DNA from: an uncultured Acidimicrobiia bacterium
GTDB lineage: Bacteria; Actinomycetota; Acidimicrobiia; Spongiisociales; JAOTWH01
Length of the DNA stretch: 64,000 nt
Direction: 5' to 3'
Assembly (NCBI GenBank): GCA_964195995.1
Contig: CAXMQS010000036.1
Coordinates: 31,116-95,115, forward strand
Shown here: one piece after another, positions 2,955-23,760 of the stretch
Layout: every line of letters begins with the position of its first letter
How positions within the stretch are numbered: the first letter of the stretch is position 1
Translations under genes and position numbers: made by a program
Notes under the pieces: generated by a model
What the model saw: only the letters and a program-made list of their open reading frames with translations
What the model was told of the DNA's origin: nothing
Database searches by the model: none

Positions 2955-4733
2955 ATGGGCTCCTTGCCTCCGTACTCTCATCAGTTCATGAAGGTCCTCG
3001 ACCCCTCCATCAGGCCCGGCCTGTCGCTGATTCGCACCACCCTCCTCGGGTATAGGTGGGAGGCGGCGCGGGCTATCAGCGGGGCGCTGCTGTGGATGGC
3101 CACCGTTGTGTCAATCCCGCTGATGACGAGACACATCATCGACCGGTCCATCCTGGCCGACCGCGGCTCCGTGCTCGGCGCGCTCGTTCTCGGGCTGTTG
3201 GGACTTGGCTTTCTGCAGGGAGTTGGCATTGGTGTCCGCAGGTACTTCGGCTTCCGCCTCTCGTATAGGGCCGAAGCCGATCTCCGCAATCACATGTTCG
3301 AGCAGGTGCAACGCCTCAGCTTTCGCTTCCATGACGAGGCCAGCACCGGCCAGCTGATGGCCAGGGCGTCGAGCGACCTATCGCAGATGAGGCTGGTCCT
3401 CGCCATGACGCCCATAACGGTCGCCAACATCGGCATGTTCTTGGCGGTGATCACCGTCTTTGTCGTGCTTGATCCTGTCTTGGGCCTTGTGGCCTCGCTC
3501 ACCGTTCCGATCCTCGGCTTGAGCGCCCGTGGCTACGCCAAGCGCGTCATCAAGCTGTCTTTTGACGTCCAGCAGCGCCTTGCCGACCTCAGCGAGGTGG
3601 TGGAGGAAGCTATCGGTGGCATTCAGGTCACGAAGTCACACGGCCAGGAGGACCAGGAGCAGGGCAAACTCGACCACGCCGCCGACCGCATCCTGGACGA
3701 CCAGATCGCGCTGGCCCGCATCCGATCGGTCTTCACCCCGCTGTTCGAGCTCATCCCATCCCTGGGGACCGTCGCGGTGCTGTGGCTCGGCGGCACCCGC
3801 GTTATCAACGGGCAGGTCAGCCTTGGCGAGTTCGTGGCCTTCACTCAATATCTCGGCGTCCTCATGTTCCCGTTGCGCATCACGGGCTGGTTCTTCGCCC
3901 AGGTTCCGAGAGCTGGTGCTGCAGGAACCCGCATCAGCCAGCTGTTCTCCGAAGCTCCAGATATCGCAGATCCCCGCCACCCTGAGACACTGCAGCCGGG
4001 TCCCGGCGAAGTCAGGCTGACCGGTGTCTCCTTCGCCTACCCCGACGGCACCGGCGTGCTGGACAACATCGATCTCACCATCCCTGGCGGGACATCGGTT
4101 GCCCTCGTCGGCGCCACCGGCGCCGGCAAGACCACGCTCTCCTTCCTCATCCCGCGCTTCTACGACGTCGACGAGGGGACCGTTGCCATAGATGGTGTCG
4201 ACGTCCGCCGAATTCAGCTGGCCGACCTGCGCCGAGAGGTCGCCCTGGTGTTCCAGGAGACGTTCCTGTTCTCAGCCTCGGTCAGGGACAACATCGCCTT
4301 CGGCCGTGCCGACGCCTCCGACGAACAGGTGCGCTTGGCGGCCCGCCTGGCGCAGGCCCACGATTTCATCATGGATCTGCCCGATGGATACGACACGGTC
4401 GTGGGCGAGCGCGGTCACTCGCTCTCTGGAGGACAGCGCCAGCGGGTGGCTCTGGCCCGCGCCGTCCTGCGCGACCCGCGGGTCCTCATCCTCGACGACG
4501 CCACCTCGTCTGTTGACGCCATCGTCGAAGCCGAGATGCTTACAGCTCTGGAGCGGGTGATGGCGGGCAGAACCACGGTCATCATCGCCCACCGCACCTC
4601 GACGCTGGCGCTGGTCGATCGGGTCGTCTTCCTTGACGAGAGCGGCATAGCGGCCGTTGGTCCTCACGCCGAGCTGGTCCGCACCGTTCCCAGGTACGCC
4701 GAGGTGCTGGCTCAGGAGGAGTCCCTCAGATGA
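2955..4733 (+). CDS. ABC transporter, fused permease/ATP-binding subunit (heterodimeric exporter, subunit 1)
   Basis: Six-TM N-terminal domain followed by an NBD with Walker A GATGAGKTT, signature LSGGQRQR and Walker B ILILDDATS. 4-nt overlap with the next gene. Confidence 0.85.
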   Translation: MGSLPPYSHQFMKVLDPSIRPGLSLIRTTLLGYRWEAARAISGALLWMATVVSIPLMTRHIIDRSILADRGSVLGALVLGLLGLGFLQGVGIGVRRYFGFRLSYRAEADLRNHMFEQVQRLSFRFHDEASTGQLMARASSDLSQMRLVLAMTPITVANIGMFLAVITVFVVLDPVLGLVASLTVPILGLSARGYAKRVIKLSFDVQQRLADLSEVVEEAIGGIQVTKSHGQEDQEQGKLDHAADRILDDQIALARIRSVFTPLFELIPSLGTVAVLWLGGTRVINGQVSLGEFVAFTQYLGVLMFPLRITGWFFAQVPRAGAAGTRISQLFSEAPDIADPRHPETLQPGPGEVRLTGVSFAYPDGTGVLDNIDLTIPGGTSVALVGATGAGKTTLSFLIPRFYDVDEGTVAIDGVDVRRIQLADLRREVALVFQETFLFSASVRDNIAFGRADASDEQVRLAARLAQAHDFIMDLPDGYDTVVGERGHSLSGGQRQRVALARAVLRDPRVLILDDATSSVDAIVEAEMLTALERVMAGRTTVIIAHRTSTLALVDRVVFLDESGIAAVGPHAELVRTVPRYAEVLAQEESLR

Positions 4734-7786: not shown

Positions 7787-8967
7787 TCCGACAGGTGTTC
7801 CTGATCGCCAGGCGGGACTTCTTGCAGCGGGCACGCAGCAAGGCGTTCCTGGCCTCGATGCTTGTCATCGTGGGCTTGGTCCTAGTTATGGGCCCGCTCC
7901 TTTCCCTCCAGAACAGGGCGCCATCGCCATACGACATCGGGGTCGTTGGGGCAGAACCCGATGGGCTCGATGCCTCGCTGCACTCGGCCGTTCGGCTCTT
8001 CGACAGGCGAGCAGTCGTCCACCGCTACCAGTCTCTCGCAGCTGCCGAGGAGGCACTCGATGGGGGGAGCGTCGACGTGTTGTTGGTCGATGATCAAGAA
8101 GTCGTGTGGCGCGAGGAGGCGGATCCGCAGCTCGAGGCCGTCGTCGCTGCGGCCTTCGGCGATATCGATCGGCGCCGGGTCATGGCAGAGCTGGGCCTGA
8201 CTGAGGAGGAGGCTTCGCGGTTGCTGTCACCGGCGCAACAACGCGACAGCAGCACCCTGCAAGAACCCGACCCCGATGCCGACGCCAAGAAGATCGCCGC
8301 CTATGCCGGCAACGTCGTTCTCTACATCTCCATCCTGATGTTCGGCCAGTTCGTCCTCATGGGCGTTATGGAGGAGAAGTCGTCTCGAGTGGTCGAAGTC
8401 GTGCTGAGCCGGGCTCAACCCCGCCACCTGTTGGCCGGCAAGGTGCTGGGCATCGGCGCCCTCGGGCTCATCCAGCTCGTGGTGCTGATCGTGGCGGCGC
8501 TGGTGACGCTGAGCATGGCCGACATCGCCGACGTGGATGTGGCTGCCCTCGGTTTTCGCACGGCGGGCATCGTGCTGTTGTGGTTCTTCCTCGGCTTCGC
8601 GTTCTTCAGCGTGCTGTACGCAGGACTGGGAGCGACTATTTCTCGCCAGGAAGACCTGCAGGGTGTTGCCATGATCCCCGTGCTGTTCCTGTTGCCTGGT
8701 TACTTCATCTCGTTCATTGCTCTGGATGATCCAGAAGCCCTCATCGCCCGGATCGCGTCGATCGTCCCGCCGTTATCGCCTCTTGTGATGCCAATCCGCA
8801 CGATCGCTGGCTCCGTGCCGCCCGAGCAGGTGGCGCTGGCTGTGGCGCTGATCCTGTTGGCCACCTACGGGATCATTCGATTCGCCGGACGCGTCTACCG
8901 GGGTTCCATTCTGCGGATCGGCGCCAAGGTGCGCCTCCGAGAAGCATGGCGGGCCTCCAGGGGCTGA
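7783..8967 (+). CDS. ABC-2 family transporter permease with large extracytoplasmic loop
   Basis: An N-terminal TM helix is followed by a soluble loop of about 150 aa, then five hydrophobic helices. 4-nt overlap with the ATPase gene. Confidence 0.7.
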   Translation: MIRQVFLIARRDFLQRARSKAFLASMLVIVGLVLVMGPLLSLQNRAPSPYDIGVVGAEPDGLDASLHSAVRLFDRRAVVHRYQSLAAAEEALDGGSVDVLLVDDQEVVWREEADPQLEAVVAAAFGDIDRRRVMAELGLTEEEASRLLSPAQQRDSSTLQEPDPDADAKKIAAYAGNVVLYISILMFGQFVLMGVMEEKSSRVVEVVLSRAQPRHLLAGKVLGIGALGLIQLVVLIVAALVTLSMADIADVDVAALGFRTAGIVLLWFFLGFAFFSVLYAGLGATISRQEDLQGVAMIPVLFLLPGYFISFIALDDPEALIARIASIVPPLSPLVMPIRTIAGSVPPEQVALAVALILLATYGIIRFAGRVYRGSILRIGAKVRLREAWRASRG

Positions 8968-8996
8968 CGAGTAGTGTCGCCGCGGAAGGAGGAGAT

Positions 8997-9890
8997 ATGC
9001 GCTTGGGGCTCGTCGTTGGGTTGCACGATGCTGACGATCGGGGAAGCGATCCTCCTCGGTGGGAGGAGATCAGCGCCCAGGTGCTGGCGGCCGAGCGAGC
9101 TAGCTTCGACATCGCCGTTTTCGAAGACGCCCTCACCTTCAGCGGCCGCGGCCACTGGGAGGCGATGACCCTGGTCGGTGGCTTGGCCGCCATCACCGAC
9201 ACCATCGAGTTGTCACATTCGGTGGCCAACGCCGCCATGCGGCGGGCACCAACAATCGCCTGGTCAGCAGCCACCCTCGATGAGATCTCTGGCGGCCGTT
9301 ACACCCTGGGCGTCGGCGCTGGCAATACCCCCGACGACTTCGTAGCGTTTGCCGTCCCCGTTGGTAGCAAGTTCAGCCGCTTCGAAGAGTCGCTGGCAGT
9401 TATCCATAGCCTGCTTGGCGACGGCAGGGTTGACTTCGAGGGTGAGTTCCAGAGCGCCCACAGCAAGCGTTTCGCTCCCGCCGGCTCTCGAACGGTGCCC
9501 ATAGTCGTGGCGGGCAAGGGTCCGCGAGTGCTGCGAATGGCCGCCCGCTATGGCGACGGTTGGAACTGGTGGGGCAACGCCGCCGATCCAACGACCGGTC
9601 TCGCTGAGATCCTCGATGAGGTCGGGCGAGCCTGCGACGACGTCGGCCGTGACCCTGCGACGCTTCGACGTTCGCTCGACTTGTACTCATACGACATCCT
9701 GGGGCTGATGGAGGAGGGCCCGGGCGAGTGGGTGTTCTCCGGGAGCTCCGCTGAGATGGCGGATTCGATCCTCGGCCTCGCCGAGCTCGGCATCGACGAG
9801 GTGCGGTGTGACGTCCTTACCAAGCCCGGGCTGCGGGTGGCGGCTGTAGAGGCGATGGCCCAAGTGGCTGAGCTAGTCCACGCCGGGTAA
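8997..9890 (+). CDS. LLM-class (luciferase-like) flavin/F420-dependent oxidoreductase
   Basis: MRLGLVVGLHDAD… TIM-barrel LLM motifs. ATG at 8997 is preceded by GGAAGGAGGAG. Confidence 0.75.
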   Translation: MRLGLVVGLHDADDRGSDPPRWEEISAQVLAAERASFDIAVFEDALTFSGRGHWEAMTLVGGLAAITDTIELSHSVANAAMRRAPTIAWSAATLDEISGGRYTLGVGAGNTPDDFVAFAVPVGSKFSRFEESLAVIHSLLGDGRVDFEGEFQSAHSKRFAPAGSRTVPIVVAGKGPRVLRMAARYGDGWNWWGNAADPTTGLAEILDEVGRACDDVGRDPATLRRSLDLYSYDILGLMEEGPGEWVFSGSSAEMADSILGLAELGIDEVRCDVLTKPGLRVAAVEAMAQVAELVHAG

Positions 9891-17145: not shown

Positions 17146-18141
17146 CTAGCTAGAAAGCAGCACGATGCCGGCGGGGTCAACCCGCCACTGAACGGTGGTG
17201 CCCACGTCGGCGCGTTCAGGTCCCGTCGCCAAGATGGTGGGCCCGACCAGGGGCTGCAGCCCTACCGCGAACTCGTTGCCCGTGAAGTCGCACGACACGA
17301 CCTTTGCCGAAAGCGAGCCTGTTTGGTCGATCGTCACCGAGCCCGGTCGCAGGGCTGCTGTGATCCGACCACTTGTAGATGAGGCGACTGGGCCCCATGG
17401 GGTGGCGACTCGGCCTCCCGTCTCCTCGACACTGGCGAAGGTGGTCCACCCCAGGAAACGAGCGACGAACTCGTTGGAGGGGCGCCGCCACACCTCCTCG
17501 GGAGGGCCAGCCTGGACGATGCGGCCTTCGTTCAGGATCACGACACGATCGGCGATAGCCAGCGCTTCGTCCTGATCGTGAGTGACGTAGAGGACCGCGG
17601 TGTCCAGTCCGTCGAAGATGGCGCGAAGGTCGGCGGTGAGGCTCTCACGCAGAATACGATCCAGCGAGCCAAGGGGTTCGTCCAGCATCAGTAGGCGCGG
17701 CCGGGGTGCTAACGACCGTGCCAGGGCTACTCGCTGTTGCTCGCCGCCAGACAACGTGTCGACAGCACGTCCCCCCCTGTCGCCAAGGCCGACGAGGGTG
17801 AGGGCCGCCGCCACCGACTCCTCGATGGCGTTCTCTCCGGTCATCTCGAGGCCGAAGGCAACGTTCCCGGCGACAGAGCGGTGGGGGAACAGCGCCAGGT
17901 CCTGGAACATCAATCCGAACTGGCGTTGATGAGGCGGAGTGTTCTGGAGGTCGGTTCCTCGCCAACTCACCGTGCCAGCGTTGGGTGCCAGCAATCCGGC
18001 GACAACGCGCAGCAGCGTGCTCTTGCCGCTGCCGCTCGGTCCCAATACCACGACGGTTTCGCCGACATCCACGATGACATCGACATCGGACAGGATGGTG
18101 TTCCCATCGATCGAGACAGAGATGCCGGCAGCTTCGAGCAT
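17146..18141 (-). CDS. ABC transporter ATP-binding protein (thiamine/iron-type importer)
   Basis: MLEAAGISVSIDGNTIL…[40 protein letters not shown] overlap with the permease gene. Confidence 0.8.
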   Translation of the reverse strand: MLEAAGISVSIDGNTILSDVDVIVDVGETVVVLGPSGSGKSTLLRVVAGLLAPNAGTVSWRGTDLQNTPPHQRQFGLMFQDLALFPHRSVAGNVAFGLEMTGENAIEESVAAALTLVGLGDRGGRAVDTLSGGEQQRVALARSLAPRPRLLMLDEPLGSLDRILRESLTADLRAIFDGLDTAVLYVTHDQDEALAIADRVVILNEGRIVQAGPPEEVWRRPSNEFVARFLGWTTFASVEETGGRVATPWGPVASSTSGRITAALRPGSVTIDQTGSLSAKVVSCDFTGNEFAVGLQPLVGPTILATGPERADVGTTVQWRVDPAGIVLLSS

Positions 18142-19727
18142 CAGAAGTCGCCGATCGTTCCTGGTCGAGAGCGTTCGAGGATGGCAACAGCGGCGGTGGT
18201 CAGGATCATCAGCACTGTGCTCAGCGCGAAGGCAGACGCGAGATTGTCGGAGCCAGGCTGCGAGAGGAGGCGGAAGATGGCGATGGGGACGGTGGGGTAG
18301 TCGGGCCTGGCGACGAACGCGGTAGCGCCGAACTCGCCGAGCGAGATGGCGGCTGCGAAGGCAGCCCCGACTGCTGCAGCACGGCGGATCAAGGGAAGAT
18401 CGATCTCGCGCCACACCCGGCCGGGCGCCGCCCCCAGCACGGCTGCGGCTTCCCTGAGCCGCGGCTGTACCGAACGCAAGACCGGCAAGGAGGCCCGGAT
18501 CACGAACGGGATGGCGACAAGGGCGTGGGCGATGGGAATCAGCGCAACGGATGCCCTGATGTCGACCGGCCAGTCGAGTGCCACGATGAAGCCGAAGCCG
18601 ACGGTGACAGCCGAGGCTCCGAGGGGAAGCATCAGGAGGGCGTCGAACCAGGCGAGGCGCCGGGTGGAGATGACGGTGGATGCTGCCAGGCCGACGACGA
18701 TCGCGAGCACCACCGTGACCGCGGCAAAGCCGAGAGAGTTGCCGATCGCCTCGGTTGGCGCCACGAAGAGGGCGCTGGGGACGTCATCCAACCCGGTGAA
18801 CGCCGATAGCGACCATGAGCCACCCGGACGTAGTGCCCGCCCCACTAGAACGACGAGTGGACCGCCGAGCAATACCGCCGCCAGCCCCAGCGAGCCGCCG
18901 AGGAGCCAGCGCTCGCCGGGCGTCTCCGGCCTCCTTGCCACATGAGCTGCCGGTCGTAACACCAGACGTCGTGCCGTGCGCTCTTGATAGCGGGCGTAGG
19001 CGATCAAGATCGAAGTCACTCCTACGAGCTGGATCAGGGCCAGCACCGCAGCGGAGCGCAGGTCGAGGAATGCCGTCGTCTGGCGGTAGATCTCGACCTC
19101 GATGGTGGATAGCCGCGGTCCGCCGAGCAGCAACACGATGCCGAACGAGGTGAAGGTGAACAGGAACACGATGCTCGAGGCGGCAGCGATGGCGGGGCGC
19201 AGCAGGGGGAGTGTCACCTTGCGGAAGGCGGCGAGGCGGGAAGCTCCCAGCATCCTCGCGGCGTCGACCAGTTGTGGGTCGAGGTGCTGCCACAGGCCGC
19301 CGACCACCCGCACCACCACCGCATAGTTGTAGAAGACGTGAGCTAGCAAGATGATGGTGATGGTCCGGTCGAGGCGGACACCGGTCGTCCCGTTTGCCCC
19401 GAACAAGGCAAGGAAGGCTGTCGCCACGACGACCGTGGGGAGCATGAACGGAACGGTGATGGCGGCGCGGAAAAAGGCCTTGCCCCGAAACTCGAAGCGC
19501 GAGACGACATAGGCGGCCGGCAGCGCGATAGCCAGGGTGAGCAGCGTCGAGACGACGGCCTGCCAAGTTGTGAACCAGACGACGCCGCCGTCCACGGTGA
19601 CATCACCTGCCTGGGACAAGCCCCTCCACAGGATGCGGCCGAGTGGGTAGGCGAAGAAGTACCCGAAAAAGACCAGCGGAACGACGATGAGGGCAGATCG
19701 CCTCACCGCAACACGATCTCTGTCCAC
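18141..19727 (-). CDS. ABC importer permease, duplicated (two-domain) ThiP/FbpB-like
   Basis: 528 aa with two tandem six-TM permease domains carrying EAA-like loops. Confidence 0.8.
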   Translation of the reverse strand: MDRDRVAVRRSALIVVPLVFFGYFFAYPLGRILWRGLSQAGDVTVDGGVVWFTTWQAVVSTLLTLAIALPAAYVVSRFEFRGKAFFRAAITVPFMLPTVVVATAFLALFGANGTTGVRLDRTITIILLAHVFYNYAVVVRVVGGLWQHLDPQLVDAARMLGASRLAAFRKVTLPLLRPAIAAASSIVFLFTFTSFGIVLLLGGPRLSTIEVEIYRQTTAFLDLRSAAVLALIQLVGVTSILIAYARYQERTARRLVLRPAAHVARRPETPGERWLLGGSLGLAAVLLGGPLVVLVGRALRPGGSWSLSAFTGLDDVPSALFVAPTEAIGNSLGFAAVTVVLAIVVGLAASTVISTRRLAWFDALLMLPLGASAVTVGFGFIVALDWPVDIRASVALIPIAHALVAIPFVIRASLPVLRSVQPRLREAAAVLGAAPGRVWREIDLPLIRRAAAVGAAFAAAISLGEFGATAFVARPDYPTVPIAIFRLLSQPGSDNLASAFALSTVLMILTTAAVAILERSRPGTIGDF

Positions 19728-20719
19728 TCGCGGATCCAGGCGTCGCGGTTGGCATCGACGAAAGCTGGGTCGAAGAGTCGGACCTCGTCGGGGAATTCGG
19801 TGTAGGCGACGAAGTCGGCGGGGAGGGCGGCCTCGCTGTTAGCCGGGTACACGAACATGTTGAGGGGAATGTCTTGTTGGAACTCGATGCTAAGCATGAA
19901 GTCGATGAGTTGACGAGCCGCTGACTGGGCATCCGAACCCTCCAAGACGGCGGCGTATTCGATCTGCCGATAGCAACTGGCCCCCAGAACACCCGTCGGC
20001 GCCTGGTCGGTCGGCTCTGCGGCGAAGATGACCTCTGCCGGTGGCGAGGAGGCGTAGGAGACGACGAGGGGCCGATCTCCTCCGTACAGGCTGAAGTCTC
20101 CGCGGTAGGCCTCCTCCCATCCGGCGGCGACCAGCACGTCGTTGGCAACGAGACCGCGCCAGTAGTCCTGCCAGCCGTCGGCGCCGTACTCGTGGATGGT
20201 CGCCAGCAAGAACGCCAGGCCGGGCGACGAAGTGGCGGGGTCCTGGACCACGAGCAGGCCCGCGAACTCGGGGGAGAGCAAGTCGTCGAGGTTCTGCGGG
20301 AGGGCCCGACCGATTTCGCTGAGGGCTTCGAGGTCGTAGTTGATGCAGACGTCGCCGAAGTCGATTGGCGCCGCCCGCCCCTCAGTTCCAGCTTGGAGGT
20401 CGGCGGGCACGTGGCGGAGACCGTCGGGTTGGTAGCGGTCGAGGATGCCGGCGTCGAGAGCTCGGCCGAGGAGGGCGTTGTCGACGCCGAAGATGACATC
20501 TGCCAGCGGATTGTCCTTGGTGAGGATCGCCTGATTGACGACCGCACCGGCGTCCCCGGAGCGCAGAACCTTGACGGTGATGCCGGTCTCGGCGGTGAAA
20601 GCCGCCAGCACGTCGTCGGAGACCGCGAACGAATCATGAGTGAGCAGCGTCACCGTGTCCGCACTCGATCCACCACACGAGGCGCCGACGAGGATCACGA
20701 TGGCGGCGAGGCGCTTCAT
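19703..20719 (-). CDS. thiamine/iron-type periplasmic substrate-binding lipoprotein (ThiB/TbpA-like)
   Basis: Lipoprotein signal MKRLAAIVILVGASCGG. ThiB-like fold motifs. It follows the thiamine pyrophosphokinase gene behind a TPP riboswitch. Confidence 0.7.
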   Translation of the reverse strand: MKRLAAIVILVGASCGGSSADTVTLLTHDSFAVSDDVLAAFTAETGITVKVLRSGDAGAVVNQAILTKDNPLADVIFGVDNALLGRALDAGILDRYQPDGLRHVPADLQAGTEGRAAPIDFGDVCINYDLEALSEIGRALPQNLDDLLSPEFAGLLVVQDPATSSPGLAFLLATIHEYGADGWQDYWRGLVANDVLVAAGWEEAYRGDFSLYGGDRPLVVSYASSPPAEVIFAAEPTDQAPTGVLGASCYRQIEYAAVLEGSDAQSAARQLIDFMLSIEFQQDIPLNMFVYPANSEAALPADFVAYTEFPDEVRLFDPAFVDANRDAWIREWTEIVLR

Positions 20720-21339
20720 GTCCGGTGGAGGGCTAGGACACAGCCCGCGGTGACTGTCACCGTGGCAGTGACAGCGTCGAGCTCATTGCTGACCCCGCGG
20801 GTGGTGCCCGGCGCGAGCTCCTCGTTGTCGAGTCCCCACCTGAGGCCGGAGGTCGTGACTGTGGCAGGTTCCCCGATGGCGAGCAGAGTGACCTGGTCGC
20901 CGATGGCGCCGACGATCGTGTAGTCCTGGCGAACAACCGCAGCGTGGTAGGAGTCGACGAACCATTCGACGGATGCGGTCTGGTAGCGGTCGGAAGCCAG
21001 CAAGGCGGCATTTGCCAACAGATGGTCCAAGCGTCCGCCACCCCCGCCGACCACGACGATGGAGGAGGCGCCTCTCGTCATCGCGGCGTCTAATGCGAGC
21101 TCGAGGTCAGTGGCGTCTTTATCACTGGGGCGTCGGTCGATGGCGACGCCGGCTGCTTCGACTTGTGCAAGGAGACCTGGTTCGACGGAGTCCATGTCGC
21201 CGATGACGAGGTCGGGAGTGAGCCCGAGCGGCGCCGCCAGCGCCAGGCCGGAGTCCGCGGCGATGACGCCATCGGGGGAGGGGAGGGCCGGCAGTAGGCG
21301 CGGTGCCTCGCCTCCTGCCAAGACGATGATTGTGCCCAC
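20716..21339 (-). CDS. thiamine pyrophosphokinase
   Basis: VIGDMDS…RPSDKDATDLELAL motifs. The proposed start is GTG at 21339, 7 nt after GGAGGA. The ORF-track ATG at 21357 lies inside the conserved riboswitch core. Confidence 0.7.
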   Translation of the reverse strand: MGTIIVLAGGEAPRLLPALPSPDGVIAADSGLALAAPLGLTPDLVIGDMDSVEPGLLAQVEAAGVAIDRRPSDKDATDLELALDAAMTRGASSIVVVGGGGGRLDHLLANAALLASDRYQTASVEWFVDSYHAAVVRQDYTIVGAIGDQVTLLAIGEPATVTTSGLRWGLDNEELAPGTTRGVSNELDAVTATVTVTAGCVLALHRT

Positions 21340-21436
21340 AGGTTCCTCCGCTGGCATTACCCAGATCAGGTTCGGTGGGTCGGTGGCGCCTGTAAGGCCA
21401 CCCTCTCAGCCCGGCTGCCCGAGCTCCCCAGTGACG
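21338..21436 (-). ncRNA. TPP (thiamine pyrophosphate) riboswitch
   Basis: The reverse complement reads CACUGGGGAGCUCGGGCAGCCGGGCUGAGAGGGUGGCCUUACAGGCGCCACCGACCCACCGAACCUGAUCUGGGUAAUGCCAGCGGAGGAACC. This contains the GGGG(U/A)GC…GCUGAGA and ACCUGAUCUGGGUAAUGCCAGCG…GGA thi-box elements. Confidence 0.8.
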
Positions 21437-21457
21437 GCCCCAATGGTACAGCAGTTC

Positions 21458-21506
21458 GCCCCTCCAGGGCGAGGTGGCCGAGCACAGCGAGGTCTGAGGG
21501 GGTCGA
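21458..21506 (-). repeat. GC-rich double-hairpin repeat unit (copy E, type 1, minus orientation)
   Basis: The reverse complement reads gaccccctcagacctcgctgtgctcggccacctcgccctggagggg, matching copies A and C. It lies between the riboswitch and the AT-rich promoter region. Confidence 0.6.
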
Positions 21507-21536
21507 ACTGCGGAAATGAATAGTTGAGAAAACCAC

Positions 21537-21575
21537 TTGACAAGGTGACATCATTATGACATCATCATGACATCA
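21537..21575 (+). promoter_or_regulatory. AT-rich promoter region with TTGACA and three 11-bp-phased direct repeats TGACATCA
   Basis: ttgaca at 21537-21542. tgacatca at 21546, 21557 and 21568, with exact 11-bp spacing. Local GC is near 45% in a genome of roughly 68% GC. Confidence 0.35.
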
Positions 21576-21595
21576 AGAGCCCACTAGGAGGGGAA

Positions 21596-21679
21596 ATGTA
21601 CAGCCAAACACTCACACCAGCCTTCATCCAGACCATCCAGATCGCACGCAGGGCCGACACAGCCCACATCGAGAGGTAA
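21596..21679 (+). CDS. micro-ORF 1 (27 aa), paralogue of micro-ORF 2
   Basis: ATG 6 nt after AGGAGGGG. MYSQTLTPAFIQTIQIARRADTAHIER. The paralogue pair differs mostly at synonymous codon positions. Confidence 0.45.
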   Translation: MYSQTLTPAFIQTIQIARRADTAHIER

Positions 21680-21681
21680 TC

Positions 21682-21774
21682 ATGCATAGCCAAGCACTGA
21701 CACCAACGCTCGTCAGAGCAGTCCAGACAGCCCGCAGGGCGGATGTCGCCCACATAGAGCGCACCAGCAGATGA
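21682..21774 (+). CDS. micro-ORF 2 (30 aa), paralogue of micro-ORF 1
   Basis: ATG 6 nt after GAGAGG. MHSQALTPTLVRAVQTARRADVAHIERTSR. ATGA overlap with the next gene. Confidence 0.45.
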   Translation: MHSQALTPTLVRAVQTARRADVAHIERTSR

Positions 21775-22220
21775 ACATCGAAGCTTCAGTCGTTGCCTTC
21801 GAGGAGACGCTGGCACAGCAGGCCACCCTCGGGGGAGACGCCGTTGAGGAGGCTGCTGGGGCCCTCCTTCAGGCCGTGCGGCCGGCGGTCGAGCGCCTGG
21901 CGCTATCGATAGCCGAGGACGCGGCACAAGAAGTCGCAGCCCAGATCCCGGATGCCACCGTTCGGGTCGTGATCGAAGAAGGATCGCCTGCTCTCATGGT
22001 CGAACGCCAAGAGACCGAGGAAGCGGCCGCATTCAAGGGGGAAGACCTCGAAGCCCGGCTCACGCTGCGCCTGCCGACGGCATTGAAGGGCGCTATCGAA
22101 GATGCAGCCGCTGAGGCTGGCGCATCTGTCAACAGTCAAGTAGTAGACGCACTGGGGAAGGCACTGCACCGTCACCAGCGGAGCAGCACTCGCCGCTTCA
22201 CCGGGACGATCGAAACATGA
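21771..22220 (+). CDS. acidic Ala-rich protein with C-terminal ribbon-helix-helix (Arc/CopG/HicB-like) domain
   Basis: C-terminus ARLTLRLPTALKGAIEDAAAEAGASVNSQVVDALGKAL is a strand-helix-helix RHH signature. ATGA overlaps on both sides. Confidence 0.55.
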   Translation: MNIEASVVAFEETLAQQATLGGDAVEEAAGALLQAVRPAVERLALSIAEDAAQEVAAQIPDATVRVVIEEGSPALMVERQETEEAAAFKGEDLEARLTLRLPTALKGAIEDAAAEAGASVNSQVVDALGKALHRHQRSSTRRFTGTIET

Positions 22221-22984
22221 GCCAATTCGAGAAGAGTTTTGCGATCAGCGGTCGCGCCCGGCTGGAGATCAAGATCAAGTCCGGCGACATTCGCGTTCGG
22301 GAAAGCGCCACCGGCGACGTCGTTGTCATGCTTGACGGATCAGACAAGTGGTTGGAGCGCATCGCCGTCGATCAGATCGGCGATGACATCGTCCGCATCG
22401 AGGGATCGGGTCGCACCGGACTGCTCGGCAGAGTCGAAGTTGTGGTGTCCGTCCCCGCCGGCTCCGACGTTGATGTCAAGGTCGGGTCGGCTGATGTGTT
22501 CGTCGACGTGGAGGTCACCGATCTGCGCGTCGGGGTCGGCTCGGGCGATGTGAGAGCCGGGCTCGTGAGTGGCAACGCCGCGATCAAGGCCGGATCTGGT
22601 GACGTTCACCTCGACGAAGTGCGAGGCGACTTCGATGTTTCGGTCGCCTCGGGAGACGTTCGCGTCAGGGAAGTGCGAGGAGACGTCAAGACCAAGGGGG
22701 CGTCGGGGGACATCATGTTGGACAGAGTTGGCGGTCGCGTCGATGGAAGCACTGCGTCGGGGGACATCACCATCAGGGCGTTCGAGGGCCGGGACCTGCG
22801 GGTAACCGCCTTGGCCGGAGACATCACGCTAGGCATCCCGTCCGGCCGCACGCTGGATGTTGCGCTGCAGACGATGTCGGGAGACGTCATCAACGACCTC
22901 GGGGAAGCATCGGACGAGCGCAGCGGCGCGGCGTCGCTTCGGGTGAAGACGATGGCGGGCGATATCCGACTCAAGCCCGCCTAG
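22217..22984 (+). CDS. DUF4097 (LiaF/YvlB-like) beta-helix repeat protein
   Basis: Many repeats of SGD(V/I)xV / GSGDVR, typical of DUF4097 putative adhesin domains. Confidence 0.7.
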   Translation: MSQFEKSFAISGRARLEIKIKSGDIRVRESATGDVVVMLDGSDKWLERIAVDQIGDDIVRIEGSGRTGLLGRVEVVVSVPAGSDVDVKVGSADVFVDVEVTDLRVGVGSGDVRAGLVSGNAAIKAGSGDVHLDEVRGDFDVSVASGDVRVREVRGDVKTKGASGDIMLDRVGGRVDGSTASGDITIRAFEGRDLRVTALAGDITLGIPSGRTLDVALQTMSGDVINDLGEASDERSGAASLRVKTMAGDIRLKPA

Positions 22985-23760
22985 GCGGCAGGAGGCCGCG
23001 GCAAGAAGGCGCTTGTCCGCCGGATGTATTCCACATAGGCGGGTCGACGCTTGGTGATGGTGCGCTCCAGCATGGCAACGCCGGACACCCGCACCAGCAG
23101 ATAGCTCATCAGAAGAGGCCCGATGAAGGTCCACCACGGCTCGATCGTTCCGAGGGCGACCAGGTAGAGGCCCCACCACACCAGGAAGTCCCCGAAGTAG
23201 TTGGGGTGTCGGGTGTAGCGCCACAGGCCGCGGTCCATCACTTGGCCCGCGTTAGCGGGGTCGGCCTTGAAGCGGGCCAGCTGGATATCACCGATCGTCT
23301 CGAAGAGGAGTCCCGCGGTCCACAGCGCCGCGCCCAACGCCACGGACGGCCAGAAGGTGTCGGCGCCGTCGGCTGCCATCGCCACCTGGACCGGTAGCGA
23401 TACCACCCACATGATCGCGCCCTGGAGAGCGAAGACCGTGAAGAGGCTCACCCACCAGAAGCGGCCGCCCCAGTGGCGGCGCATTGCCTGATAGCGAGCA
23501 TCCTCGCCCTTGCCTATGTTGCGCCAGGCCAGGTAGCCGCCAAGCCGCAGCCCCCACACGGTGACGAGCACAGCTACCACGAGATGGCGTACCTCGGCTA
23601 CCTCTGCCGTCACGAAAGACACCCAGGCCACCAGCACGAACCCCGGGCCCCAGAAGATGTCGACGATGCTGGCGTCTCGCAGAATCAGGCTCAGCAGCCA
23701 CAACCCCACCACAGCCGCGCCGATGACCACTGCCGCCATGACAAGAACGTCGACCATCAC
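22981..23760 (-). CDS. DUF1295 / steroid 5-alpha-reductase-like membrane protein
   Basis: Polytopic membrane protein with the C-terminal motif RHPNYFGDFLVWWG, shared by the ICMT/DUF1295 family. Confidence 0.65.
   Translation of the reverse strand: MMVDVLVMAAVVIGAAVVGLWLLSLILRDASIVDIFWGPGFVLVAWVSFVTAEVAEVRHLVVAVLVTVWGLRLGGYLAWRNIGKGEDARYQAMRRHWGGRFWWVSLFTVFALQGAIMWVVSLPVQVAMAADGADTFWPSVALGAALWTAGLLFETIGDIQLARFKADPANAGQVMDRGLWRYTRHPNYFGDFLVWWGLYLVALGTIEPWWTFIGPLLMSYLLVRVSGVAMLERTITKRRPAYVEYIRRTSAFLPRPPAA

What the first reader, a model, noticed from the sequence alone, without database searches (positions are those of the whole stretch)
21520..22984. AT-rich island: 11-bp-phased triple direct repeat, two tandem paralogous micro-ORFs, an RHH protein and a DUF4097 protein in one translationally coupled operon
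In a roughly 68% GC genome, 21520-21600 drops to about 45% GC. It contains TTGACA followed by TGACATCA three times at exact 11-bp (one helical turn) spacing. This is the geometry expected for a response-regulator or iteron-type binding array.

It drives two micro-ORFs with strong Shine-Dalgarno sequences: MYSQTLTPAFIQTIQIARRADTAHIER and MHSQALTPTLVRAVQTARRADVAHIERTSR. Their DNA differs mainly at synonymous positions (agg/cgc Arg, gcc/gcg Ala, gac/gat Asp, atc/ata Ile, ctc/ctg Leu) while the peptide motif ARRADxAHIER is kept. That argues for selection on the peptides, not chance ORFs.

They are ATGA-coupled to an acidic protein with a C-terminal ribbon-helix-helix DNA-binding domain, and then to a DUF4097 (LiaF/YvlB-like) beta-helix protein. 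The combination of duplicated leader-like peptides, an RHH regulator and DUF4097 does not match any operon I can name. It could be an envelope-stress or peptide-sensing module, an RiPP-like precursor pair, or a novel toxin/antitoxin-like arrangement. Low GC suggests horizontal origin.
Basis: partly seen in the sequence, partly recalled or inferred. Interest (0 to 1): 0.75.

Follow-up and report, generated by a model that had tools for sequence, protein, structure and literature searches.

The report
Self-regulated repressor–Toastrack operon with microproteins
This is a real, conserved actinobacterial operon whose promoter carries a helically phased operator; its likely self-regulating DNA-binding protein is paired with a Toastrack protein and, in this lineage, preceded by one or two unannotated microproteins that act as a detachable part of the repressor.

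Summary
TTGACA, three TGACATCA boxes 11 bp apart, two paralogous micro-ORFs, an acidic protein with a C-terminal ribbon-helix-helix (RHH) domain and a DUF4097/Toastrack protein are all present and translationally coupled.

Comparison with 90 related loci shows what it is.
- **Gene pair:** the RHH and Toastrack genes are an obligate pair, adjacent in 83 of 86 loci.
- **Operator:** 68 of 68 non-redundant loci carry TGACATCA-like boxes exactly 11 bp apart over the promoter. There are none in 343 kb elsewhere. The array persists in Actinoplanes as TGACGTCA.
- **Micro-ORFs:** they are real genes under purifying selection (pN/pS 0.15–0.6). They are present in about 70% of loci and were duplicated independently in two clades. 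In other lineages they are fused in frame to the RHH protein.

Best reading: an RHH repressor binds one dimer per box and shuts off its own promoter. Basic microproteins attach to its acidic N-terminal domain, and Toastrack is the signal-coupling partner.

The horizontal-transfer, RiPP, iteron and response-regulator ideas are not supported. A toxin-antitoxin-like reading is not excluded.

The RHH–Toastrack pairing was noted in passing in 2024. I found no description of the operator or the microproteins. Verdict: new variant of a known kind, moderately interesting.

The parts
21537..21542 (+). -35 hexamer TTGACA
   Evidence: Read and found by the promoter scan. An exact TTGACA sits at a fixed offset from the box array in most related loci.
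21546..21553 (+). Operator box 1 (TGACATCA), in the promoter spacer
   Evidence: The position weight matrix from 190 boxes is T.94 G1 A1 C1 A.99 T.90 C.96 A.96.
21557..21564 (+). Operator box 2 (TGACATCA). It overlaps the extended -10 element, TG-n-CATCAT (21560-21565)
21568..21575 (+). Operator box 3 (TGACATCA), over the inferred transcription start
   Evidence: In relatives, spacing between boxes is 11 bp in 118 pairs and 22 bp in 47 pairs; every other spacing occurs 5 times or fewer.
21596..21679 (+). Micro-ORF1, 27 aa: MYSQTLTPAFIQTIQIARRADTAHIER. This is the distal paralogue and is preceded by the Shine-Dalgarno sequence AGGAGGGG (21586-21593)
   Evidence: An orthologue is present in L027. 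It belongs to an 86-bp tandem duplication that includes the Shine-Dalgarno sequence. Constraint on the distal copies is weaker, with pN/pS about 0.6.
21682..21774 (+). Micro-ORF2, 30 aa: MHSQALTPTLVRAVQTARRADVAHIERTSR. This is the proximal copy, and its stop codon overlaps the RHH start (ATGA)
   Evidence: Orthologues occur in L027, L028, L029 and L087 with pN/pS 0.31. A family HMM separates these ORFs from 2,360 decoy ORFs.
21771..22220 (+). 149-aa acidic protein. It has an N-terminal helix-helix-beta-hairpin domain (residues 1-80), a disordered acidic linker, an RHH domain (96-138) and a conserved C-terminal tail, RRFTGTIET
   Evidence: Alignment. AlphaFold2 models. Profile match to Arc in PDB at E = 2e-4. 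Top Foldseek match is Arc. Family size is 2,171 clusters.
22217..22984 (+). 255-aa Toastrack (DUF4097) protein with no transmembrane segment. Its start overlaps the RHH stop (ATGA)
   Evidence: Pfam PF13349, E = 9.9e-20, covering profile positions 3-246 of 247. Maximum hydropathy over 19 residues is 1.04. It follows the RHH gene in 83 of 86 loci.

Best explanation
This is a self-contained, autoregulated transcription module of Actinomycetota, of the subtype found mainly in Acidimicrobiia and related MAGs.

**Promoter and operator.** A sigma-70-type promoter (TTGACA, 17 bp, TG-n-CATCAT) is overlaid by three 8-bp pseudo-palindromic boxes (TGAnnTCA) set one helical turn apart. The boxes fall in the spacer, on the -10 element and on the transcription start.

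**Repression (inferred).** The C-terminal RHH domain of the 149-aa protein binds one dimer per box. The dimers sit cooperatively on one face of the DNA and exclude RNA polymerase. The operon therefore represses itself.

**Translation.** One strong Shine-Dalgarno sequence heads the first cistron, and stop/start overlaps join micro-ORF2, RHH and Toastrack. Micro-ORF1 is separated from micro-ORF2 by 2 nt, and micro-ORF2 has its own weaker Shine-Dalgarno-like sequence (GAGAGG). This arrangement suggests the products are made in fixed proportion (inference).

**Microproteins (inferred).** These are basic peptides with a short N-terminal segment followed by a likely amphipathic helix. They are proposed to dock on the acidic N-terminal domain of the RHH protein. 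In effect they are a detachable N-terminal helix of the repressor that tunes its assembly or its coupling to Toastrack.

**Toastrack (inferred, least certain).** This soluble beta-helix protein is proposed to be the signal-coupling partner. It may bind the conserved C-terminal tail or the N-domain of the repressor, and relieve or reinforce repression in response to a signal that is still unknown and may be envelope-related.

**Shown here:** the conservation of the parts, their geometry, and the coding status of the micro-ORFs.

**Inferred:** who binds the boxes, the direction of regulation, the microprotein-RHH contact, and the role of Toastrack.
For: **Gene pair.** The RHH gene is followed directly by a Toastrack gene in 83 of 86 loci; the other three are cut contigs.

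**Operator.**
- 67 of 67 non-redundant loci have at least one pair of boxes exactly 11 bp apart within 300 nt upstream (68 of 68 once L087 is added).
- There are 117 such pairs in 20 kb upstream and none in 343 kb elsewhere.
- Spacing is 11 bp in 118 pairs and 22 bp in 47 pairs; all other spacings occur 5 times or fewer.
- Boxes occur in direct or inverted orientation, as expected for a pseudo-symmetric site bound by a two-fold symmetric dimer.
- The array survives at about 33% protein identity in L089, and as TGACGTCA in Actinoplanes friuliensis.
- The residues that align with Arc's DNA-reading strand (R96, T98, R100) are invariant in all 27 aligned homologues.
- The array occurs once in the 64-kb window.

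**RHH fold.** PDB profile hits to Arc, Mnt, AmrZ and TacA, helix-turn-helix pattern in the AlphaFold2 models, and Arc as top Foldseek match.

**Micro-ORFs are genes.**
- pN/pS is 0.15-0.46 in the proximal copies of six clades and about 0.55-0.6 in the distal copies. Substitutions are richest at third positions in five of the seven multi-sequence groups compared, and only marginally so in the two distal-copy groups.
- About 70% of loci have such an ORF ending at or overlapping the RHH start.
- Two clades show independent tandem duplications.
- L012 and L014 carry in-frame fusions to the RHH protein. An HMM built only from unfused micro-ORFs hits their N-termini at E = 1.7e-5 and 1.3e-4, against 0.011 for the best decoy.
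- Further N-terminally extended homologues exist: P0044, P0045, P0052, P0060 and P0066. In L091 the extended ORF starts right after the boxes.
- In the AlphaFold2 model of the natural fusion P0045, the extra N-terminal helix has pLDDT 80-93.

**Charge complementarity.** The microproteins have pI 8.5-11.9. The RHH N-domain has pI 4.1 and net charge -15.

**No RNA-level alternative.** The leader folds no better than shuffled sequence (z = +1.0) and no terminator is found.
Against: - Nothing here shows binding. Another factor could recognise the boxes.
- About a quarter of loci lack a micro-ORF, having a short leader or being leaderless. The microprotein is therefore dispensable for the core module.
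- Pfam RHH models score below their gathering thresholds.
- Coordinates of the fusion model could not be inspected, so packing of the extra helix is inferred from pLDDT alone.
- The distal micro-ORF copies evolve faster (pN/pS about 0.6) and could be decaying.
- The signal and the direction of Toastrack action are unknown.
Confidence: 0.6

Rival explanations
1. This is a type II toxin-antitoxin-like module, possibly tripartite. The RHH protein would be an autoregulating antitoxin, Toastrack the growth-inhibiting partner, and the microprotein a third modulator. Transcription would be controlled by the ratio of the partners.
For: - The RHH domain is most similar to Arc and to the TacA/KacA antitoxins.
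- Databases label relatives as HicB, TacA or DUF1778 antitoxins.
- The gene order has the regulator first, with tight translational coupling and an operator over the promoter.
- A conserved C-terminal tail follows the RHH domain.
Against: - Toastrack belongs to no known toxin family, and nothing matches in PADLOC.
- The pair sits in a conserved chromosomal position in one close relative examined (L087), next to housekeeping genes.
- In other Actinomycetota it sits beside ABC exporters and two-component systems, which suggests signalling. Ravi et al. interpret it the same way.
- The 'antitoxin' names come from the RHH domain alone. The HicB N-terminal fold is absent.
Confidence: 0.12
2. The micro-ORFs are regulatory upstream ORFs. 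On this reading, only the act of translating them matters, for delivering ribosomes to the RHH start or for sensing translation stress. The peptides themselves would have no function.
For: - They lie in the 5' leader.
- The RHH start has no Shine-Dalgarno sequence of its own and overlaps the micro-ORF2 stop.
- Micro-ORFs are missing in about 25% of loci, where the leader is 16 nt or less or the mRNA is probably leaderless.
- Peptide sequences diverge quickly between clades.
Against: - Purifying selection acts on the amino-acid sequence along the whole ORF in six clades.
- A family profile recovers members across clades.
- In-frame fusions to the RHH protein occur in several lineages.
- There is no run of any regulatory codon, no alternative RNA structure (z = +1.0) and no terminator.
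Confidence: 0.15
3. The boxes are bound by a different regulator, such as the LuxR-type response regulator encoded next to many homologous operons. On this reading the RHH protein acts elsewhere.
For: A histidine kinase plus LuxR-type regulator, or a receiver-domain protein, lies directly upstream in L008, L019 and L042-type loci. A LuxR-type regulator lies nearby in L089 and L092.
Against: - The neighbouring genes examined in the window (about 18.1-25.6 kb) include no such regulator, yet the array is intact.
- The array tracks the RHH gene in every locus, whatever the neighbours are.
- An 8-bp pseudo-palindrome repeated every helical turn, in either orientation, is typical of RHH operators (from my own knowledge of Arc, CopG, MetJ and omega). 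It is not typical of NarL/LuxR sites.
- The DNA-reading residues and the boxes are jointly invariant.
Confidence: 0.08

Closest known systems
Actinobacterial RHH-Toastrack(-ABC transporter) gene neighbourhood noted by Ravi et al. 2024, mSystems (PMC11237479)
   Same: - An RHH-domain protein is encoded next to a Toastrack/DUF4097 protein in Actinobacteria.
- The authors propose that it couples a membrane-proximal signal to transcription.
- The distant homologues L089 and Actinoplanes L092 have exactly that context, with a divergent MacB-type ABC transporter.
   Different: - The window and its Acidimicrobiia relatives have no adjacent ABC transporter.
- The paper describes no operator, no N-terminal domain and no micro-ORFs.
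- The microproteins, their duplications and their fusions are additions found here.
Arc/Mnt (phage P22), CopG, MetJ and omega repressors: RHH proteins that bind repeated sites cooperatively
   Same: - The RHH domain matches Arc and Mnt by profile.
- The repeated short boxes are helically phased, overlap the promoter, and are tolerated in direct or inverted orientation.
- Arc dimers at subsites one helical turn apart, CopG on successive major grooves, tandem MetJ met-boxes and omega heptads in both orientations are all recalled from my own knowledge and were not tested here.
   Different: - Here the RHH domain is C-terminal to an 80-residue acidic domain of unknown fold.
- It is followed by a conserved tail.
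- It is paired with a Toastrack protein and a microprotein.
- The box sequence, TGAC(A/G)TCA, is its own.
Type II antitoxins with RHH domains (HicB, TacA/DUF1778, ParD, CcdA)
   Same: - The RHH domain, an autoregulated bicistronic core and translational coupling.
- Database labels for relatives are 'HicB family antitoxin' and 'TacA1-like'.
   Different: - The partner is not a known toxin.
- The N-terminal domain is not the HicB fold.
- The locus is not visibly mobile.
LiaF/LiaG/VraT Toastrack proteins of Firmicutes envelope-stress systems
   Same: - The same Toastrack domain (Pfam PF13349), with partial matches to LiaG.
- Some homologous loci sit directly downstream of a histidine kinase and a LuxR-type regulator.
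   Different: - There is no LiaI-LiaF transmembrane domain and no membrane anchor.
- The LiaG equivalog score is far below its cut-off, 54.6 against 285.
- The transcription factor is an RHH protein encoded in the same operon.

Membership tests
Ribbon-helix-helix (Arc/MetJ) DNA-binding superfamily | Sequence signature of strand, helix, G-x-S/T/N turn and helix, detectable by profile | tested here: met
   The A1 profile against PDB hits Arc (1u9p/1b28) at E = 2e-4 to 6e-3. It also hits Mnt, AmrZ and TacA/KacA, all over residues 95-141. NCBIfam YlcI_YnfO_N scores E = 2e-6.
Ribbon-helix-helix (Arc/MetJ) DNA-binding superfamily | Passes curated Pfam thresholds for an RHH family | tested here: not met
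   Arc scores 15.7 bits against a cut-off of 20.4. HicB scores 15.3 against 21. TacA1 scores 12.9 against 21.
Ribbon-helix-helix (Arc/MetJ) DNA-binding superfamily | Two-helix fold following a short strand. The strand pairs only in the dimer | tested here: met
Ribbon-helix-helix (Arc/MetJ) DNA-binding superfamily | Binds the repeated operator boxes | not testable with these tools
   Only co-occurrence is available: 68 of 68 loci carry the array, and R96/T98/R100 are invariant.
Toastrack / DUF4097 (PF13349) | Full-length match above the Pfam gathering score | tested here: met
   71.4 bits against a cut-off of 22.9, covering profile positions 3-246 of 247.
Toastrack / DUF4097 (PF13349) | Intracellular, with no transmembrane segment inside the domain | tested here: met
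   Maximum Kyte-Doolittle hydropathy over 19 residues is 1.04, so no hydrophobic segment is present.
Type II toxin-antitoxin system (HicAB or TacAT type) | Partner gene belongs to a known toxin family (HicA, GNAT TacT and so on) | tested here: not met
   The partner is Toastrack only. There are no PADLOC hits.
Type II toxin-antitoxin system (HicAB or TacAT type) | HicB N-terminal fold (partial RNase H-like) | tested here: not met
   The N-domain is helix-helix-beta-hairpin. The Pfam HicB hit covers only the RHH part, residues 96-128.
Type II toxin-antitoxin system (HicAB or TacAT type) | Partner inhibits growth and the RHH protein neutralises it | not testable with these tools
   This needs expression experiments.
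Lia-type envelope stress system (LiaF/LiaG with LiaSR) | LiaG or LiaF equivalog score, and a LiaI-LiaF transmembrane anchor | tested here: not met
   LiaG scores 54.6 against 285. LiaF_C_term scores 13 against 57. There is no transmembrane segment.
Lia-type envelope stress system (LiaF/LiaG with LiaSR) | Adjacent histidine kinase and NarL/LuxR-type regulator | tested here: not met
   Absent from the window. The neighbours are a thiamine operon and a DUF1295 gene. The pair is present in a subset of homologous loci such as L008.
Actinobacterial RHH-Toastrack-ABC operon (Ravi et al. 2024) | RHH transcription factor gene adjacent to a Toastrack gene | tested here: met
Actinobacterial RHH-Toastrack-ABC operon (Ravi et al. 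2024) | ABC ATPase and permease in the same neighbourhood | tested here: not met
   Not in the window or in its syntenic relative L087. Present in L089 and L092.
Leader-peptide attenuator | Alternative RNA hairpins or a terminator downstream of the leader ORF, and runs of regulatory codons | tested here: not met
   The leader folds with z = +1.0 against shuffles. No terminator-like site lies in 21300-23200. The peptides contain no codon run.
RiPP precursor pair | Adjacent modifying, transport or immunity genes, and a leader-core organisation | tested here: not met
   The neighbours are thiamine uptake genes, DUF1295, an acyltransferase and a GDSL lipase. The peptide is fused to the RHH protein in L012 and L014.
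Iteron array of a replicon | Adjacent rep gene, with the repeats acting at an origin | tested here: not met
   No rep gene is present. The array overlaps a promoter and is conserved upstream of a chromosomal operon.

The most novel reading that the evidence does not exclude
This could be a previously unrecognised three-component signalling system, in which a freely evolving microprotein is a split-off subunit of an RHH repressor. The microprotein is sometimes duplicated and sometimes fused back. Its abundance or stability, for example through stress-dependent proteolysis or capture by the Toastrack beta-helix, would set the oligomeric state of the repressor on a helically phased operator. That would give Toastrack proteins a concrete biochemical role as a platform that trades a microprotein against a transcription factor.
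Probability: 0.2. Interest if true: 0.8.

Novelty: new variant of a known kind. Interest (0 to 1): 0.58.

Why it matters
Toastrack/DUF4097 is a very widespread domain. It occurs in LiaF, VraT and YvlB, in human FAM185A and in thousands of actinobacterial proteins, yet its molecular mechanism is unknown.

This module reduces the problem to a few small soluble parts plus a sharply defined 8-bp operator that overlaps a consensus promoter. That makes it unusually easy to test, by gel shift, reporter fusions, two-hybrid assays or co-folding. A cultured relative, Actinoplanes friuliensis, carries the core version.

The module also adds a family of 25-50-residue bacterial microproteins that gene callers almost never report. 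Only 6 members were found among 5.8 billion database proteins. The natural gene fusions already point to their binding partner.

It also cautions that thousands of relatives are labelled 'HicB/TacA antitoxin' on the strength of the RHH domain alone.

Tried and rejected
- **Known RNA element.** Rfam finds only a TPP riboswitch on the opposite strand. The leader RNA is not structured. Rejected.
- **Horizontal transfer.** Composition and synteny speak against it.
- **RiPP and defence system.** No supporting neighbours and no PADLOC hits.
- **First locus searches.** The search with the broad alignment A1 failed because it had no sufficiently conserved stretch. It was repeated with A2.
- **Co-folding attempt.** I tried to fold an artificial microprotein-linker-RHH paired alignment. 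I used the natural fusion P0045 instead.
- **Apparent Toastrack truncation in L087.** This was a gene-calling artefact. The ORF is intact.
- **Automatic classification.** The heuristic mislabels a few loci. L007 and L035 are scored as 'fused' through an alternative frame. L022, L030, L063, L066 and L084 are scored as '0 sORF' because their Shine-Dalgarno sequence is weak. I corrected these by eye.
- **Literature.** Searches for the box sequence, and for DUF4097 together with RHH, found no description of the operator or the micro-ORFs.
Full report
**1. What is in the sequence**

Region 21500-21599 is 44% GC in a window of 64.3% GC. It holds the following, in order:
- TTGACA at 21537-21542;
- three exact TGACATCA boxes at 21546, 21557 and 21568, 11 bp apart;
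- the Shine-Dalgarno sequence AGGAGGGG;
- a 27-codon ORF (21596-21679);
- a second, weaker Shine-Dalgarno-like sequence, GAGAGG;
- a 30-codon paralogous ORF (21682-21774).

The stop codon of the second ORF overlaps the start of a 149-codon gene (ATGA). The stop of that gene overlaps the start of a 255-codon gene (ATGA).

The promoter scan reports TTGACA-17-CATCAT with an upstream TG. Box 2 therefore coincides with an extended -10 element, box 1 fills the spacer, and box 3 covers the expected transcription start.

The window holds 7 exact boxes against 1.5 expected. The only phased array in the 64 kb is this one.

The two micro-ORFs belong to an 86-bp tandem duplication that includes the Shine-Dalgarno region.

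**2. The two larger proteins**

The 255-aa protein is a full-length Toastrack/DUF4097 domain (Pfam E = 9.9e-20). It has only sub-threshold similarity to LiaG and no hydrophobic segment.

The 149-aa protein is acidic (pI 4.5).
- Pfam RHH models (Arc, HicB, TacA1) hit residues 96-134, but below their gathering scores.
- A profile of 27 homologues hits Arc, Mnt, AmrZ and TacA/KacA in PDB over residues 95-141, with best E = 2e-4.
- AlphaFold2 gives two long helices (3-20, 23-58), a beta-hairpin (62-79), a disordered acidic linker, and then the two RHH helices (103-116, 120-138).
- The best Foldseek match is Arc.
- In the alignment to Arc, R96, T98 and R100 take the places of Arc's DNA-reading strand residues. 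They are invariant in all 27 homologues, as is the motif L-R-x-P.
- A C-terminal tail, (R/K)-x-x-G-T-x-E-T at the C-terminus, is also conserved.

**3. Relatives**

The word-index search found only 31 close relatives, all from Acidimicrobiia-type MAGs and metagenomes. A full HMMER scan of 1.84 billion cluster representatives found 2,171 clusters at E ≤ 1e-3 and 995 at E ≤ 1e-10. A search starting from the distant member P0028 found more than 3,600 proteins. These include cultured Actinoplanes and related genera, and they are labelled 'HicB family antitoxin', 'DUF1778', 'TacA1-like' or hypothetical.

I fetched 86 loci around homologues and six more by exact-protein look-up (L087-L092).

**4. The gene pair and the operator are conserved together**

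A Toastrack gene follows the RHH gene directly in 83 of 86 loci. The remaining three are truncated contigs.

The operator evidence is as follows.
- All 67 non-redundant loci with enough upstream sequence have at least one pair of TGACATCA-like boxes (one mismatch or fewer, either orientation) exactly 11 bp apart within 300 nt upstream. The count is 68 of 68 once L087 is added.
- There are 117 such pairs in 20 kb upstream and none in 343 kb of the rest of the loci.
- Spacing between boxes is 11 bp (118 pairs) or 22 bp (47 pairs). No other spacing occurs more than 5 times.
- The position weight matrix from 190 boxes is almost invariant: T G A C A T C A.
- Arrays are either three direct boxes, as in the window, or two direct plus one inverted. 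Because the box is a pseudo-palindrome (TGAnnTCA), both arrangements offer nearly the same surface to a two-fold symmetric dimer.
- An exact TTGACA sits at a fixed offset in most loci.

The array persists in distant homologues. L089, at about 33% protein identity, has TGACATCAccaTGGTGTCA abutting the start codon. Actinoplanes friuliensis has TGACGTCActaTGACGTCATG.

The RHH protein is the only DNA-binding protein present in every locus, and the boxes cover the -10 element and the transcription start. I therefore infer that the RHH protein represses its own operon, one dimer per box on one face of the helix. From my own knowledge, not tested here, this resembles Arc dimers bound one helical turn apart, CopG on successive major grooves, tandem MetJ met-boxes, and omega heptads that work in either orientation.

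**5. The micro-ORFs are genes**

In about 70% of non-redundant loci, a 25-50-codon ORF with a Shine-Dalgarno-like sequence ends at, or overlaps, the RHH start. The overlap is -4 (ATGA) or -1 in most cases.

Their sequences fall into clade-specific flavours that share one plan. A short N-terminal segment often contains T/S-P. It is followed by what looks like an amphipathic basic helix with a conserved H/Q and R.

Within clades, substitutions are richest at third codon positions in five of the seven multi-sequence groups compared, and only marginally so in the two distal-copy groups. The pN/pS values are:

| Group | pN/pS |
|---|---|
| L002 clade | 0.15 |
| L008 clade | 0.29 |
| Window clade, proximal copy | 0.31 |
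| Two window paralogues compared | 0.31 |
| L065 clade, proximal copy | 0.42 |
| L007 clade | 0.46 |
| Distal copies | about 0.55-0.6 |

Tandem pairs occur in the window clade (window, L027, L028) and independently in the L058/L065/L067/L072/L073/L077/L083 clade. In that second clade both copies end in …KTDTRS. The window's closest syntenic relative, L087, has a single copy.

**6. Fusions point to the partner**

In L012 and L014 (also L046 and L047), the micro-ORF runs in frame, with no stop, into the RHH protein: MHYTPELITAVHEAR… and MHWTPELLATVHDAR….

An HMM built only from unfused micro-ORFs scores these N-termini at E = 1.7e-5 and 1.3e-4 in a set of 2,367 small ORFs. The best decoy scores 0.011.

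The HMMER scan also returned several homologues with 45-85-residue N-terminal extensions that begin with a similar basic helix: P0044, P0045, P0052, P0060 and P0066. Of these, only P0045 reaches a borderline profile score (E = 0.062). In the P0045 locus the extended ORF starts immediately after the box array.

An AlphaFold2 model of P0045 has mean pLDDT 84. It gives the extra N-terminal helix pLDDT 80-93 and the linker about 66. That suggests a packed helix, but I could not inspect the coordinates.

The microproteins are basic (pI 8.5-11.9). The RHH N-domain is strongly acidic (pI 4.1, net charge -15).

I infer that the microprotein is a detachable N-terminal element of the repressor.

**7. 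What it is not**

- **Not a structured RNA leader.** The leader RNA (21572-21790) folds no better than shuffled sequence (z = +1.0). No terminator-like site is found. Rfam sees only a TPP riboswitch on the other strand.
- **Not a RiPP cluster.** No modifying enzymes are nearby. The neighbours are a TPP-riboswitch-controlled thiamine uptake/TPK operon, DUF1295, an acyltransferase and a GDSL lipase.
- **Not a recognised defence system.** There are no PADLOC hits.
- **Not horizontally acquired, as far as can be seen.** The GC of the RHH and Toastrack genes equals the window average. The locus is syntenic with L087.

About a quarter of loci lack any micro-ORF, having a leader of 16 nt or less or a probably leaderless mRNA. 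The microprotein is therefore an accessory part of the module, not a core part.

**8. Context in other lineages**

- In several Acidimicrobiia-type loci, a histidine kinase plus LuxR-type regulator lies directly upstream, and a large protein with a C-terminal YbjQ domain lies convergent downstream.
- In Actinoplanes-type loci, a MacB-type ABC transporter is divergent and a LuxR-type regulator is nearby. This is the context that Ravi et al. 2024 mention in one sentence, as an actinobacterial operon in which an RHH protein replaces a GntR regulator next to Toastrack and ABC genes.
- A table from a Streptomyces gene-cluster paper lists a hypothetical 177-aa protein next to a DUF4097 protein in the lun cluster, and a second DUF4097 protein directly beside the cluster's ABC exporter genes. 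I did not check the homology of that 177-aa protein.

These contexts fit a signalling role better than a toxin role. However, nothing here excludes a toxin-antitoxin-like mechanism.

**9. Novelty and verdict**

The RHH-Toastrack pairing is known as a genomic association. I found no description of the following in the literature available to me:
- the helically phased TGAC(A/G)TCA operator;
- the N-terminal domain;
- the microprotein family, which is almost absent from protein databases, with 6 unnamed hits among 5.8 billion proteins;
- the recurrent duplication and fusion of that microprotein.

I classify the finding as a new variant of a known kind, with moderate interest.

Noticed in passing
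window 21325-21440 (- strand): A TPP riboswitch (Rfam RF00059, 57.5 bits against a gathering score of 54.3). It heads the divergent minus-strand operon of thiamine pyrophosphokinase, a solute-binding protein and an ABC permease (20716-21357, 19703-20719, 18141-19727). The same riboswitch and operon lie beside the RHH module in L087, and probably in L007, L015, L016, L028, L032 and L052.
   Followed up: partly
window 21451-21462 / 21500-21511: A 12-nt inverted repeat, 92% complementary, with 37 nt between the arms (GCAGTTCGCCCC … GGGTCGAACTGC). It lies between the TPP riboswitch and the RHH-operon promoter. Its function is unknown; it may belong to the divergent thiamine promoter.
   Followed up: no
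window 22981-22984: The Toastrack stop codon (TAG) overlaps the stop codon of the convergent DUF1295 gene (22981-23760, minus strand). No intrinsic-terminator-like site was found anywhere in 21300-23200.
   Followed up: no
L008 2062-3824 and 5425-7368; L019 2729-3859 and 5268-7637: In a subset of homologous loci, the module lies directly downstream of a histidine kinase plus LuxR-type response regulator, or of a receiver-domain protein. It is also convergent with a 650-790-aa protein that carries a C-terminal YbjQ_1 domain. This may be a functional link to two-component signalling.
   Followed up: partly
L087 8450-9217 versus the called gene at 8675-9577: The public gene call over-extends the antisense DUF1295 ORF across the intact 255-aa Toastrack gene, which was therefore not called. 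At first this looked like a Toastrack deletion. None of the micro-ORFs were called in L087 either.
   Followed up: yes
L012 about 3700-3800: About three tandem copies of a roughly 33-nt unit (CCTCATGTAGCGAAGCGRTAGGACMC…GGCC…TGT) lie just upstream of the operator in this MAG. A different short repeat (AACCTAGAACCTAG…) lies upstream in L074.
   Followed up: no
P0168 (381 aa): An apparent fusion of RHH to a long arginine-rich tail, which ends in Toastrack-like motifs (…SGDVRLDRVDGHLRVKGASGDL…). It looks like a frameshifted read-through of the RHH-Toastrack pair, not a true fusion.
   Followed up: no
L092 (Actinoplanes friuliensis CP006272.1, 5742718-5751209), 3950-4003: A cultured organism carries the core module: a 163-aa RHH protein, DUF4097, a divergent MacB-type ABC transporter and a nearby LuxR-type regulator. 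Its boxes are perfectly palindromic, TGACGTCA, 11 bp apart, and they abut the start codon, so the mRNA is probably leaderless. This is a practical system for experiments.
   Followed up: partly
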